Shown: positions 35,942 through 47,548 of the stretch, piece after piece | Layout: each line of letters opens with the position of its first letter | How positions within the stretch are numbered: position 1 is the stretch's first letter | NCBI GenBank assembly: GCA_963727445.1 | Contig: CAVSGI010000006.1 | Span: 224,001 to 288,000, forward strand | Reading direction: 5' to 3' | DNA: 64,000 nucleotides | Origin: an uncultured delta proteobacterium | GTDB taxonomy: Bacteria > Myxococcota_A > Polyangia > Polyangiales > B10-G4 | The notes under the pieces: generated by a model | Told to the model about the DNA's origin: nothing | What the model saw: the letters and a program-made list of their open reading frames with translations, nothing else | Database searches by the model: none | Position numbers and translations under genes: made by a program

Positions 35942-36013
35942 TCGAATTCATCGGCGGGCTTCCCTTCTCATCGCGCGGCGACCGGCCTACCATCTCTCGC
36001 TCCGGAGGCTGAC

Positions 36014-37279
36014 ATGAAGGCGATCGTCGTCGTAGGCGCACAATGGGGAGACGAGGGAAAGGGGAAGCTCGCCGATGTTCTGGCGCCTCGGGCGAAGCTT
36101 CTCGTCCAATACGCCGGCGGCGGAAACCCGGGGCAGACGATCGCGGTCGCGGGCAACCGCCTGGTCTTCGACATCCTTCCTCCCGGACCGATGCGCAAGG
36201 GCATGGGGTGCCTCCTCGCGCAGGGGATGGCCCTCGATCCCAAGCTGCTCGTCGAGGAGCTCGACCTGCTCGCGGAGCACGACATCTCGGAGGGTGAGGT
36301 CTTCGTGTCGCGGCGCGCCCACGCCATCCTCCCGCATCACATCCTGGTCGATGAGCTGCGCCAGGAAGAGGAGGGGGCCTCCGGCGTACGGCGCCGCGGG
36401 ATCGGCCCCGCCTACGCCGACAAGCTCGCGCGTCGCGGCGTGCAGATCGGCGATCTGACGAGCGACAAGCTCGAGGACAAGCTCGCGCAGAGCATCGAAG
36501 GCTGGCGCTCCGTGATCGAGGGGCTGGGCGGCACGGTTCCGGAGGCGCGCGAGGTGGCCGACGGCTACCGTTCGCTCGGCGAGCGACTCGCCAAGCACTT
36601 CGTCGACGGCTCGAAGCTGGTGGGCGACGCCATCGCCAGGGGCGACAAGGTCGTGCTCGAGGCGCCCCTCGGGACGATGGTCGACCTCGACATGGGCGCG
36701 TATCCCTTCGTCGTCGCGGCCTCGACCATCGCCGCGGGCGCCGCGCCTGGGGTGGGCCTCGCGCCGGACGCCATCGGCACGGTGATCGGCGTCGCCAAGG
36801 CATACTCCACACGACCCGGCCGCGGCCCGATCGGCGCCGAGGTGACCGGCGACCTCGCCAAGCACCTCATCGACCAGGGCCAGGAGTACGGACAGGACGG
36901 GCGGCCGCGTCGCGTAGGCATGCTCGACATCGCGGCGTTGCGTTTCGCCAAGCGCGTCAACGGCATGGCGCAGCTCTTCCTCACCAAGCTCGACGTGCTC
37001 GCGGGTCTCGACGAGATCCCTGTCTGCGTGGGTTACGAGCTCGACGGTGAGGAGCTGTCGGAGCCTCCCTTCGAAGGGCTGTCGCGGGCGACGCCCAAGG
37101 TCGAGATGCGACCGGGATGGAAGGAGAGCCTCGAGGGGTGTCGCAGCTTCGAGGAGCTCCCCGAGGCGGCCCAGGGCTACGTGCGCTTCATCGAGGAGCA
37201 GGTGGGCGTGCCCGTCACGATGATCGGCGTGGGGCCGGACCGCGCCGCCACCATCGTCCAGAAGTCGCCCTTCGACTGA
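36014..37279 (+). CDS. Adenylosuccinate synthetase-like protein, active site degenerate (PurA paralog)
   Basis: GAQWGDEGKGK, GIGPAYADK, KAYSTR, TKLDVL, PGW and GVGP present; NAGHT>NPGQT, GTTGRG>GVRRRG, EGAQG>EAPLG, GATTGR>GQDGR. Confidence 0.85.
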   Translation: MKAIVVVGAQWGDEGKGKLADVLAPRAKLLVQYAGGGNPGQTIAVAGNRLVFDILPPGPMRKGMGCLLAQGMALDPKLLVEELDLLAEHDISEGEVFVSRRAHAILPHHILVDELRQEEEGASGVRRRGIGPAYADKLARRGVQIGDLTSDKLEDKLAQSIEGWRSVIEGLGGTVPEAREVADGYRSLGERLAKHFVDGSKLVGDAIARGDKVVLEAPLGTMVDLDMGAYPFVVAASTIAAGAAPGVGLAPDAIGTVIGVAKAYSTRPGRGPIGAEVTGDLAKHLIDQGQEYGQDGRPRRVGMLDIAALRFAKRVNGMAQLFLTKLDVLAGLDEIPVCVGYELDGEELSEPPFEGLSRATPKVEMRPGWKESLEGCRSFEELPEAAQGYVRFIEEQVGVPVTMIGVGPDRAATIVQKSPFD

Positions 37280-37282
37280 TCG

Positions 37283-38327
37283 TCAGCCGCTCGCGGCTTC
37301 GACGAGCGCGTCGACCACGGGCGTCACGTCCTTGAATCCCTCGACGACGCGGTTCTGGCCGTCCCAGGCGGCGTCCACCGCGGCGGCGAAGAGCTCGCGG
37401 CTCGGGGCCTCGTCCACCACCTTCTTCGTGAGCACGTCCGCCGCGTCTTCGTCCTGGTAGAAGTCGCCGGCGACGGCCGCGCCCCGAACGAGCCCTTCGT
37501 CGTCCAGGGCGACGCCCGCGGAGATGAAACCGATGGGCACCTCGCGGATGGAAGACCAGTCGAGGCTGTCCCATGCGTCGTCGAAGCCCACCGTGGCGCG
37601 CGTCTGGTTCGCGTCCGCCGCCTCGCGCTCGGCGTCGCTCAGAGACGAGTGGTCGAGCTCGAGCTCCTTGTCCGGGTAGCGATCGACGTGTCCCTCGGCG
37701 AGGGTGCGCACCAGGTCTTCGGCCGAGCGGGGAGCCTCCCAGAATCTCGCTCATCAGGATCGGATCCTTCGCCTCGAGCGTCATCTCCTCGCGCATCGGA
37801 TAGCCGCTGAGCTCGTCGGGGAGCCAGTAGGGGCGGTCGACCGAGAGGAACGCCTCGACGAGCACACCACCATCCGGAAGACGCGACCAACCGATGAGCG
37901 CCGCCGGACGCTTGTCCACCGAGATCCATTCGCGGCCGAAGTACTGCGCGCGTGCCCCGGTGAGCGCGAGGCCGCCCATGAGGCCGCGGACGTTGCGGTT
38001 GAGCACGCGATCGCGGGGGCACTCCATCAGGACCGAGGAATGGCGCAGGCCCAGGGCCACGTAGAAGATGCCGCGACCCCCGACGCAGGTCGGCCCGCCG
38101 GTGGCTCGGCGGACCACCTCGATGCCGCGCGCACCGACCTCCTTGATGGCGAGCGCGTCGAGAGCCCGCTGATTTCTTCCGAGCACCACAGCGTCGCCGG
38201 AGAGGCTCGCGCCGTAGATGAAGGCGGGCGGCGCGTCGGCTCCCTCGAGCCCGCGGTAGAGCGCGTTCCCGATGGACAGGGCCCTGAGGGGAGTCACGTC
38301 CGTCTCGGCGATCCAACGTAGCCGCAT
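37283..38327 (-). CDS. Lipoate-protein ligase A-like protein, divergent (one extra base at ~37743)
   Basis: VVLGRNQ, VVRRATGG; LplA C-terminal-like G...AGDFY in the second frame; removing one base of GAATC fuses the ORFs. Confidence 0.7.
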
Positions 38328-45583: not shown

Positions 45584-45973
<390 letters not shown>

Positions 45974-46123
45974 CGCCATGCCGCTCACTCACGCCATCCG
46001 CCGGCTTACCTCCTCGCCCCCTCCCTCGGAAATACCTCCGGTATTCCTCGGTCGGGGCCTCCGGGGGCGCTCGCCCGGCTGACGCGACTGGACGGCATCG
46101 AGAGCTATGAGGAGAAAAGGGCA

Positions 46124-47548
46124 ATGACCGAGATCCGAGATCCGAAAGACGTACTCGAGTTTGCGAAGTCGAAGGGCGCCGTCATGGTGGACCTCCGCTT
46201 CATCGACCTTCCGGGCGTCTGGCAGCACACCAGCGTGCCGATCCACCGCCTCGAGGTGGCTTCCTTCGAAGACGGTTTCGGCTTCGATGGCTCCTCGATC
46301 CGTGGCTACCAGCCGATCAACGCGTCGGACATGCTCATCGTCCCCGACGCGACGACGGCGAAGATGGATCCCTTCACCAAGCACCCGACGCTGGTGTTGA
46401 TCTGCAACATCGTCGACCCGATCACCAAAGAGCCCTACGCCCGCGACCCGCGCTACATCGCGACCAAGGCCGAGGCCTACCTCAAGCAGACCGGGCTCGC
46501 GGACACGACCTATTTCGGCCCCGAAGCCGAGTTCTTCATCTTCGACGACGTGAAGTACCACTCGAGCCCCGAGGGCTCGTTCTACGCGGTCGATTCCGTC
46601 GAAGGCATCTGGAACTCCGGCTCCGATGAAGGCCCGAACCTCGGCTACAAGGTGAAGCACAAAGGCGGCTACTTCCCCGTGATGCCCACCGACACGCTGA
46701 TGGACCTGCGCACCGACATCAGCGAGATCCTGATGGAGCTCGGCTACGAGGTCGAGGTCAGCCACCACGAGGTCGCGACCGCCGGGCAGTGCGAGATCGA
46801 CATGAAGTACAACACGCTGACCGCGTGTGCCGATCAGCTGATGTGGTTCAAGTACGTCGTGCGCAACGTCGCGTACAAGTACGGCAAGACGGCGACCTTC
46901 ATGCCGAAGCCCATCTACGGCGACAACGGCAGCGGCATGCACTGTCACCAGTCGCTGTGGAAGGAAGGCAAGCCTCTCTTCGCTGGTGACGGCTACGCCG
47001 GGATGAGCGACATGGCGCTCAACTACATCGGCGGCCTGTTGCAGCACGCGCCGGCGATCTGCGCGCTCACCAACCCGACGATCAACAGCTACCGTCGCCT
47101 GGTCCCGGGCTACGAGGCGCCGGTGAACCTCGCCTACAGCTCCCGCAACCGCTCGGCGGCCATCCGCATCCCGATGTATTCGCCCTCGCCGAAGGCGCGG
47201 CGCATCGAGGCGCGCTTCCCCGACTCCTCGGGCAACCCCTACCTGGCCTTCTCCTCCATGCTCCTGGCGGGCATCGAGGGCATCCAGAAGAAGACCTCCG
47301 CGGGCGACCCCCTCGACAAGGACATCTACTCCCTCAGCCCCGAAGAGCTGAAGGACGTCCCCACCGTCCCCCACACCCTCGAAGGCTCGGTCGACGCCCT
47401 CGAACGCGACCACGAGTTCCTCCTGGTGGGCGACGTCTTCACCAAGGACATCGTCAGCGAGTGGATCGGCTGGAAGCGCGACAACGAGATCGCGCCCATG
47501 CGCCTGCGCCCGACCCCCCTCGAGTACGAGCTCTACTACGATCTGTGA
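46124..47548 (+). CDS. glnA: Glutamine synthetase type I
   Basis: [39 protein letters not shown], adenylylation-site-like DIYSL. Confidence 0.97.

What the first reader, a model, noticed from the sequence alone, without database searches (positions are those of the whole stretch)
36014..37279. PurA paralog with intact GTP site but rebuilt catalytic, IMP and aspartate sites
Seen: a full-length (421 aa) uninterrupted gene with its own TACCAT and GGAGG signals. Aligned by eye to E. coli PurA, it keeps D13/K16/K18, N38, R143, K331/D333 and the C-terminal GP. His41 (catalytic acid) is Q, the T128-T129-G130 IMP-phosphate loop is V-R-R, Q224 is L, T239 is V, and the aspartate loop GATTGR is shortened to GQDGR. 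Known: these residues are needed for adenylosuccinate synthesis, and PurZ instead changes D13, so this is neither. Inference: a repurposed GTP-binding pseudoenzyme/nucleotide sensor, or a ligase for a new substrate; the added arginines could bind a more phosphorylated nucleotide. None of the substitutions lies at a GATC error site.
Basis: partly seen in the sequence, partly recalled or inferred. Interest (0 to 1): 0.8.

Follow-up and report, generated by a model that had tools for sequence, protein, structure and literature searches.

The report
Conserved catalytically dead PurA paralog
Some uncultured myxobacteria keep, beside their normal AMP-making enzyme PurA, a second copy that has lost the parts needed for the reaction but is conserved as strongly as the working enzyme, so it most likely acts as a guanine-nucleotide-binding regulator and not as an enzyme.

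Summary
Window 36014-37279 is an intact PurA paralog, and the genome also has a canonical hisZ-purA. The gene belongs to a clade of 49 relatives, found in 11 of 401 genomes of the order. All 49 lack His41, Thr129, Gln224 and Thr239; all keep Asp13, Glu14, Lys16, Arg305, Lys331, Asp333 and the trans-acting Arg143. It is not decaying: amino-acid rates are close to those of canonical PurA in the same genomes (dN ratio 0.71-1.64). The pockets look relaxed, not rebuilt: on trees of equal length, IMP/phosphotransfer sites change 93 times against 1, the aspartate loop 44 against 3. The 'added arginines' are not clade-wide, so a new-substrate ligase is less likely than a pseudoenzyme. Best mechanism (about 0.4): a GTP/GDP/ppGpp-binding dead subunit that pairs with canonical PurA and lends it Arg143. 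A heterodimer model passes (0.90 against control 0.00), but likeness to solved homodimers would give that anyway. No conserved gene context. My paper searches found no description of it.

The parts
36014..37279 (+). PurA paralog gene (421 aa, P0001), predicted pseudo-adenylosuccinate synthetase
   Evidence: model pLDDT 94.7, Z 52.7 and rmsd 1.8 A over 417 residues to PurA 4m9d
35988..35993 (+). TACCAT, -10-like hexamer (inferred; strict sigma-70 scan negative)
36004..36008 (+). GGAGG ribosome-binding site
36047..36067 (+). P-loop G12-D13-E14-G15-K16-G17-K18, intact; G12-K16 invariant in the clade
36134..36136 (+). His41 replaced by Gln; His in 0 of 49 clade members
36365..36397 (+). IMP loop, clade motif E-x-E-G-A-S-G-x-(P)-R-R; T128 and T129 lost
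36431..36433 (+). Arg143 equivalent (residue 140), which binds IMP of the partner subunit in PurA; 49 of 49
   Evidence: contact role from PMC11571797 and PMC11276676 passages
36668..36670 (+). Gln224 replaced by Leu (F/L/Y in the clade; Gln in 0 of 49)
36713..36715 (+). Thr239 replaced by Val (V in 51 of 52 rows)
36815..36817 (+). Val273 replaced by Pro (P/S/A in the clade)
36884..36913 (+). Aspartate loop EYG-QDGRPRR, degenerate and one residue short; R305 and R306 kept
36986..36994 (+). K331-x-D333 guanine-recognition motif, intact; both 49 of 49
   Evidence: contact role from PMC11276676 passages

Best explanation
A catalytically dead PurA paralog that arose by an old duplication inside this myxobacterial order and serves as an optional regulatory subunit of the canonical enzyme. 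Shown by sequence: it folds like PurA, keeps the GDP/Mg contacts and the dimer surface, has lost its own IMP, phosphotransfer and aspartate contacts, and is under purifying selection. Inferred: (1) it binds GTP, GDP or (p)ppGpp without turning them over; (2) it forms a mixed dimer with canonical PurA, in which its invariant Arg143 completes the IMP site of the active subunit while its own site stays empty; (3) the nucleotide in its pocket sets the stability or activity of that dimer and so tunes flux from IMP to AMP to the guanine-nucleotide pool. Keeping Arg143 fits a stabiliser or activator better than a poison subunit. That the protein is no longer an adenylosuccinate synthetase I put at about 0.93, that it is non-catalytic at about 0.72, and this partner and mechanism at about 0.4.
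For: GDP/Mg contacts listed for H. pylori AdSS (PMC11276676 passages; mapped to E. coli numbers by constant offsets with matching residues): D13, E14, G15, K16, K331, D333, G416 and R305 are each 49 of 49. Same-subunit IMP side-chain contacts (PMC11571797 Table 3): T129 0 of 49, T239 0 of 49, N38 28 of 49; the one contact given in trans, R143, is 49 of 49. Parsimony changes on trees of length 11.77 (49 paralogs) and 11.73 (72 canonical): IMP/phosphotransfer sites 93 against 1, aspartate loop 44 against 3, R143 0 against 0, whole protein 3460 against 3271. A canonical purA locus is present in 11 of 11 paralog-bearing genomes, and the two gene trees run broadly in parallel (distance r = 0.94 over 9 genomes). 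Heterodimer model: score 0.90, best of 3 controls 0.00, runs share at least 97% of contacts, partner pLDDT at least 88; the mark was reached by 116 of 157 solved complexes and 2 of 215 mismatched pairs, and these counts hold only roughly here. At the 59 modelled interface positions the paralog consensus equals the canonical consensus at 43, against 183 of 336 elsewhere. E. coli PurA is an inactive-monomer/active-dimer equilibrium (Kd 10 uM, about 1 uM in vivo; PMC6136348 passages), and GDP and ppGpp inhibit PurA (PMC10912719 passages), so both the lever and the ligand site exist in the family.
Against: The heterodimer pass is expected from likeness to the many solved PurA homodimers and does not show that these two bind; a homodimer was not modelled for comparison. 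R143 invariance is weak evidence alone: 40 of 70 other canonical-invariant sites outside pockets and interface are also kept. The interface is somewhat relaxed: 6.7 changes per site in paralogs against 5.2 in canonical PurA, not clearly below the rest of the paralog (8.7; p = 0.13); K140 is 29, R147 25 and D231 42 of 49. Canonical PurA keeps its own R143 in 9 of 9 paralog-bearing genomes checked, so the partnership cannot be obligatory, and the paralog is patchy (8 of 32 genomes of one family; not found in the same-genus genome G013, 86% complete). It is never next to purA or other purine genes in the 11 loci read. GDP-contact positions G17, G40, T42 and S414 are also relaxed (22 changes against 2 over the 13 positions). 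Parallel trees are what vertical descent gives and do not show co-evolution.
Confidence: 0.4

Rival explanations
1. A pseudoenzyme that binds guanine nucleotides as a homodimer or monomer and signals to a partner other than PurA, for example a regulator or another enzyme. The clade-fixed loop E-x-E-G-A-S-G and the conserved C-terminal surface would be the new binding face.
For: New clade-fixed positions (E118, E120, G121, S123, R127, V223, M303 in query numbers) change 3 times in paralogs against 50 in canonical PurA. Each 20-residue block from 321 to 420 is more conserved among paralogs than among canonical PurAs of the same 9 genomes. The dimer surface is only moderately kept. Stand-alone gene with its own -10-like hexamer in 9 of 11 loci.
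Against: No candidate partner: no neighbour is shared across families. R143 and R144 stay fixed with no ligand in the protein's own IMP site to explain it.
Confidence: 0.3
2. An active GTP-dependent enzyme with a new substrate: a ligase or kinase that keeps D13 as base and uses R130, R131 and R143 to hold another phosphorylated ligand.
For: D13, E14, K16 and R305 are invariant. T239V, K130R and W309M are fixed changes near the old sites. PurZ shows that this fold can be re-aimed (PMC12884076 passages).
Against: The position of the catalytic His takes six different residues (Q 41, S 3, T 3, E 3, F 1 and one other of 52; 9 changes). The pocket linings at 38, 39, 128, 129, 224, 240, 273 and 298-303 each change 5-18 times, unlike a specific site. 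No conserved pathway neighbours.
Confidence: 0.2
3. Still a slow or condition-specific adenylosuccinate synthetase.
For: Passes the NCBIfam equivalog NF002223 (420.8 against cut-off 402); fold intact.
Against: Lacks H41 (146 of 146 broad canonical representatives), T129 (145), T239 (144), V273 (143) and Q224 (131); fails TIGR00184 (373.4 against 395.55).
Confidence: 0.05
4. A decaying duplicate or an assembly artefact.
For: Patchy presence; the window's own lineage runs somewhat fast (dN ratio 1.07-1.64 in the 8 pairs with G000).
Against: 49 full-length relatives of 417-436 aa; no stop in 11 of 11 coding sequences; dN/dS about 0.10-0.30 in the four closest pairs, like canonical purA; 75 sites without any change over tree length 11.77; independent contigs carry the substitutions.
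Confidence: 0.02

Closest known systems
Adenylosuccinate synthetase PurA (EC 6.3.4.4; PF00709; E. coli 1ADE, H. pylori 6ZXQ)
   Same: Full-length fold (Z 52.7, rmsd 1.8 A, 417 aligned), P-loop GDEGK, guanine motif K331/D333, R305, trans-acting R143, most of the dimer surface; 48% identical to the canonical copy in the same genome.
   Different: No H41, T128/T129, Q224, T239 or V273; drifting aspartate loop; stand-alone gene instead of the hisZ-purA locus; found in only 11 of 401 genomes of the order.
PurZ / PurZ0 (succino-amino-deoxyadenylate synthases)
   Same: A PurA paralog that has left the IMP-to-AMP reaction.
   Different: PurZ replaces D13 by Ser in all 147 phage sequences (PMC12884076 passages) and stays an enzyme. 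This protein keeps D13, scores 62.8 against a cut-off of 300 on NF038379, nests among the order's PurAs, and has no phage or Z-pathway neighbours.
Trypanosomatid prozymes (dead paralogs of AdoMetDC and of deoxyhypusine synthase)
   Same: A dead paralog kept under selection beside the active gene; the proposed way of working, heteromer with the active enzyme, is the same (PMC3663545, PMC6221367, PMC5201418: search listing and start of abstracts only).
   Different: In those abstracts the active enzyme depends on the dead partner. Here canonical PurA keeps its own R143 and most relatives have no paralog, so any effect is optional; the dead subunit keeps a nucleotide pocket; heteromer formation is only modelled.
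HisZ (recalled, no call on its function)
   Same: A bacterial enzyme paralog turned into a non-catalytic regulatory subunit in a biosynthetic pathway.
   Different: HisZ regulates an unrelated enzyme; unrelated fold. It happens to sit upstream of the canonical purA here (PF13393).

Membership tests
PurA (EC 6.3.4.4) | PurA fold, full length | tested here: met
PurA (EC 6.3.4.4) | P-loop with D13, E14, K16 and guanine motif K331/D333 | tested here: met
   49 of 49 each
PurA (EC 6.3.4.4) | Catalytic His41 (role as general acid recalled) | tested here: not met
   Gln here; 0 of 49 against 146 of 146
PurA (EC 6.3.4.4) | IMP phosphate ligands T129 and T239; base ligand Q224 (role of Q224 recalled) | tested here: not met
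   0 of 49 each; phosphate contacts from PMC11571797 Table 3
PurA (EC 6.3.4.4) | Aspartate site V273, T300, T301, R303 | tested here: not met
   P, Q, D, R here; clade 1, 22, 24 and 39 of 49
PurA (EC 6.3.4.4) | Trans-acting R143 | tested here: met
   49 of 49
PurA (EC 6.3.4.4) | Curated profile cut-offs | tested here: inconclusive
   NF002223 passed (420.8/402), TIGR00184 failed (373.4/395.55)
PurA (EC 6.3.4.4) | Forms adenylosuccinate; complements a purA mutant | not testable with these tools
   needs assay
PurZ / PurZ0 | D13 replaced by Ser | tested here: not met
   D13 in 49 of 49; criterion from PMC12884076
PurZ / PurZ0 | NF038379 cut-off | tested here: not met
   62.8 against 300
PurZ / PurZ0 | Phage Z-pathway gene context | tested here: not met
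   none among neighbours read in 11 loci (20 chosen proteins scanned, 9)
Prozyme-type pseudoenzyme | Paralog without catalytic residues, under selection, in genomes with the active gene | tested here: met
Prozyme-type pseudoenzyme | Forms a heteromer with the active paralog | tested here: inconclusive
   model 0.90 against control 0.00, but like complexes are solved; interface partly relaxed
Prozyme-type pseudoenzyme | Active paralog has lost the residue that the dead one supplies in trans | tested here: not met
   canonical R143 in 9 of 9 paralog-bearing and 20 of 20 other genomes checked
Prozyme-type pseudoenzyme | Changes the activity of the active enzyme | not testable with these tools
   needs assay

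The most novel reading that the evidence does not exclude
A pseudoenzyme subunit for adenylosuccinate synthetase: a dead PurA that senses GTP, GDP or (p)ppGpp in its retained pocket and controls the active PurA by lending Arg143 across a mixed dimer. That would be a protein-level switch at the IMP branch point, of the prozyme type, in bacteria.
Probability: 0.35. Interest if true: 0.8.

Novelty: new variant of a known kind. Interest (0 to 1): 0.6.

Why it matters
PurA sits at the branch between AMP and GMP synthesis and is known to be controlled by small-molecule inhibitors and by dimerisation. A dead paralog kept under selection as strong as the essential enzyme points to a further layer of control, and evolution has run a clean experiment on the fold: it dropped the IMP, phosphotransfer and aspartate contacts and kept the guanine-nucleotide contacts and the one residue that works across the dimer. 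The idea is testable with two recombinant proteins. It also shows an annotation trap: databases name these proteins adenylosuccinate synthase, and this one passes a curated cut-off. Limits: the clade is narrow, the named records that carry it are all metagenome-assembled, and no gene context points to a physiology.

Tried and rejected
Gene context: no neighbour is shared across families; tryptophan 2,3-dioxygenase and a glycerol-3-phosphate dehydrogenase-like gene lie near in 6 of 8 loci of one family, which I treat as inherited synteny. A possible fusion (P0282, 585 aa) reads as a frameshifted copy of P0039. First fold with the 49-row alignment left 225-227 and 231-245 under pLDDT 50; the 150-row alignment resolved this, so it was alignment depth. 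Strict sigma-70 and terminator scan: 0 sites. Expression: no RNA holder listed; the two DNA runs held only small shares and were used only for the two contigs named. Search for columns in canonical PurA that track paralog presence: the candidates follow the phylogeny; canonical K140R goes with paralog K140A/E in one sub-branch only, a single event, not counted. Support values printed after re-rooting can be shifted and are not relied on; the raw tree gives 1.000 for the paralog branch. Exact sister group of the clade is unresolved (differ). dS is compressed by GC3 of 0.86-0.98, so dN/dS values are rough. Phylum sample: no further paralog among 301 genomes (the second hit, G076, is canonical). 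Earlier findings by sequence, place and first word search: nothing. Paper searches for a description of this clade or of a dead PurA: 0 papers each; top listings unrelated; the classic E. coli mutagenesis papers did not turn up in these searches, so the roles of H41, Q224, K140, R147 and D231 are recalled. No supplements were read.

Full report
Observation. Window 36014-37279 (+) is one open frame of 421 aa with GGAGG at 36004-36008 and TACCAT at 35988-35993. The changes are real. Relatives 81-89% identical from other contigs share Q41, L224 and V239. A contig of run X2 over 36104-36474 shows no difference at codon 41, and a contig of run X1 over 36777-37011 is identical across the short aspartate loop. 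A model from a 150-row alignment has mean pLDDT 94.7 and matches PurA at Z 52.7, rmsd 1.8 A over 417 residues.

A canonical copy exists. The genome (9.47 Mb, 85.6% complete) has 2 matches: this gene and G000:C27:244838-246103, 48% identical. The second keeps H41, TTKRG, EGAQG, VTSS and GATTGR and follows a hisZ-like gene (PF13393). The first refutation condition, being the only purA, is not met.

The clade. Of the 120 best homologs listed, 49 form one group with a long stem (raw support 1.000 in the 18-sequence tree). It falls beside or among the canonical PurAs of the same order, so it arose by an old duplication there; the exact sister group is unresolved. It is narrow. Against 1.84 billion representatives the clade profile found one full-length representative and one fragment among the best 150. 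It was found in 11 of 401 genomes of the order (13 hits at E up to 1e-168, 2 of them canonical), in four families, including 8 of 32 genomes of one family (the unpublished G122 enters that count as a genome with only a canonical-range match and belongs to the family scored; no other claim rests on it). No further member appeared in a sample of 301 genomes of the phylum. A motif scan of the GTDB collection gave 9 named records, all metagenome-assembled: 4 Sandaracinaceae, 2 Polyangiales, 1 Myxococcota, 2 uncultured proteobacteria; all 9 carry the degenerate sites. They are not added to the counts. All 11 genomes hold a canonical purA locus; 9 are full-length and open, G150 has a 39-residue in-frame deletion, and G162 is in three frames. 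The same-genus genome G013 (86% complete, 590 contigs) gave no paralog.

Selection. In 36 genome pairs among 9 genomes, paralog dN over canonical dN is 0.71-1.64, about 1.1 at the middle. In the four closest pairs dN/dS is about 0.10-0.30 for the paralog and 0.11-0.24 for purA; dS is compressed by high GC3. No coding sequence has a stop (11 of 11). Pairs with the window's genome are the fastest (1.07-1.64). Distances of the two genes correlate at r = 0.94, as vertical descent gives. Neutral decay is refuted.

What was kept and what was lost. I took ligand contacts from H. pylori AdSS structures (passages of PMC11276676 and PMC11571797) and mapped them to E. coli numbers by constant offsets at which the residues match. 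GDP/Mg side: D13, E14, G15, K16, K331, D333 and G416 are 49 of 49, as is R305; G17 is 43, G40 42, T42 23 (mostly Ser otherwise) and S414 12 (mostly Gly, as in the genome's canonical copy). In the window's protein all 13 of these positions equal the canonical copy. IMP side, same subunit: T129 0, T239 0, V273 1, N38 28, R303 39 of 49. H41 and Q224 (roles recalled) are 0 of 49, against 146 and 131 of 146 broad canonical representatives; I left 3 of the 149 out of that reference (one clade fragment, two other degenerate PurAs). The IMP contact given by the neighbouring subunit, R143, is 49 of 49. On trees of equal length (11.77 and 11.73) with similar total change (3460 and 3271), the nine IMP/phosphotransfer sites change 93 times in paralogs and once in canonical PurA, the five aspartate-loop sites 44 and 3 times, the 13 GDP sites 22 and 2 times, R143 never. 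A pocket re-aimed at a new substrate should settle on new fixed residues. This one drifts, including the position of the catalytic His. A few changes are fixed (T239V, K130R, W309M, L228V and the loop E-x-E-G-A-S-G), which keeps a new ligand or a new partner open.

Context. No neighbour is shared across families in 11 loci. In the window the gene follows an RCC1-repeat protein and meets a lipoate-ligase-like gene tail to tail. A TANNNT hexamer stands upstream in 9 of 11 loci (1 of 2000 shuffles; kin not independent), which suggests a separately transcribed gene; the strict promoter scan was negative.

How it most likely works. PurA is active as a dimer in which an Arg from one subunit completes the other's IMP site (PMC11276676). 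E. coli PurA dimerises with Kd 10 uM against about 1 uM in the cell and may be switched on by ligand-driven dimerisation; the H. pylori enzyme was reported in that paper not to be regulated this way (PMC6136348 passages). GDP, GMP and ppGpp inhibit PurA, with conflicting reports on the ppGpp mechanism (PMC10912719 passages). I recall, without a call, that inactive E. coli mutants R143L and D13A restore activity when mixed. A subunit that has dropped every own IMP and aspartate contact but kept R143 and the guanine pocket is what a regulatory partner in a mixed dimer would look like: half-active, with the dead half reading the guanine-nucleotide pool. The heterodimer model passed: 0.90 against a best control of 0.00, at least 97% shared contacts, partner pLDDT at least 88; the mark was reached by 116 of 157 solved complexes and 2 of 215 mismatches, roughly applicable here. 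PurA homodimers are solved many times, so this shows likeness and not binding. At the 59 modelled interface positions the two consensus sequences agree at 43, against 183 of 336 elsewhere, so the paralog has not evolved a private surface. Against: the interface is looser than in canonical PurA (6.7 against 5.2 changes per site; p = 0.13 against the rest of the paralog); 40 of 70 other canonical-invariant sites are kept as well, so R143 alone proves little; canonical PurA keeps its own R143 (9 of 9); and most relatives live without the paralog. I give this mechanism 0.4, a sensor for another partner 0.3, a new enzyme 0.2, residual PurA activity 0.05 and decay 0.02.

Comparison with what is known. 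It is a member of the PurA structural family but fails the active-site tests for EC 6.3.4.4 and the D13S and profile tests for PurZ. It would work like the trypanosomatid prozymes (search listing and start of abstracts of PMC3663545, PMC6221367 and PMC5201418), but without dependence of the active enzyme, so I do not file it as one. Searches for a description found none; the library lacks most subscription papers, so this is not proof of absence. Unchecked notes of this scan report other remodelled PurA relatives in other lineages, several in fixed gene modules. Remodelling of PurA seems to recur, which lowers the surprise, but none matched this sequence.

Verdict. A real, selectively maintained, apparently undescribed pseudo-PurA of one myxobacterial order. 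New variant of a known kind; interest 0.6, and 0.8 if trans-complementation and nucleotide control are shown.

Noticed in passing
window 37283-38327 (-): A lipoate-protein-ligase-like gene (PF21948) directly downstream is split by one frame change near 37710; possibly an assembly error.
   Followed up: partly
L069, L072, L073, L075 (G013, G134, G035, G150), from about 1500: A third, distant PurA-like family (about 31% identical; motifs FGDxGKG, HGTTGVGVG or similar, HNxDxGWQG) in 4 of 5 genomes examined; not found in the window's genome.
   Followed up: no
L067:680-1840 (G150) and L068:1113-2383 (G162): In two paralog-bearing genomes the canonical purA is damaged in the assembly: a 39-residue in-frame deletion in the helical domain, and a gene in three frames. 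Assembly error or real is open.
   Followed up: partly
P0264/P0270 (unnamed) and P0269/P0271 (named Oceanivirga salmonicida): Two other, independently degenerate PurAs among the 149 representatives: P0264 has D13E and H41S with R143 kept; P0269 has changes at T129 and T239 and around the aspartate loop. Loss of PurA chemistry may have happened more than once.
   Followed up: partly
L042, L045-L049: Tryptophan 2,3-dioxygenase and a glycerol-3-phosphate dehydrogenase-like gene lie near the paralog in 6 of 8 loci of one family.
   Followed up: partly
L043:8583-8855 and L050:1258-1572: An IF-1-like gene lies next to or within about 5 kb of the paralog in 2 of 11 loci; probably chance.
   Followed up: no
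window 45635-47548: PII-like and glutamine-synthetase-like genes (named by eye) lie about 8 kb downstream; not seen near the paralog in the other loci read.
   Followed up: no
L002:2776-3162: A 128-aa ORF after the canonical purA looks like RidA by eye (label recalled), but the Pfam scan gave no hit.
   Followed up: no
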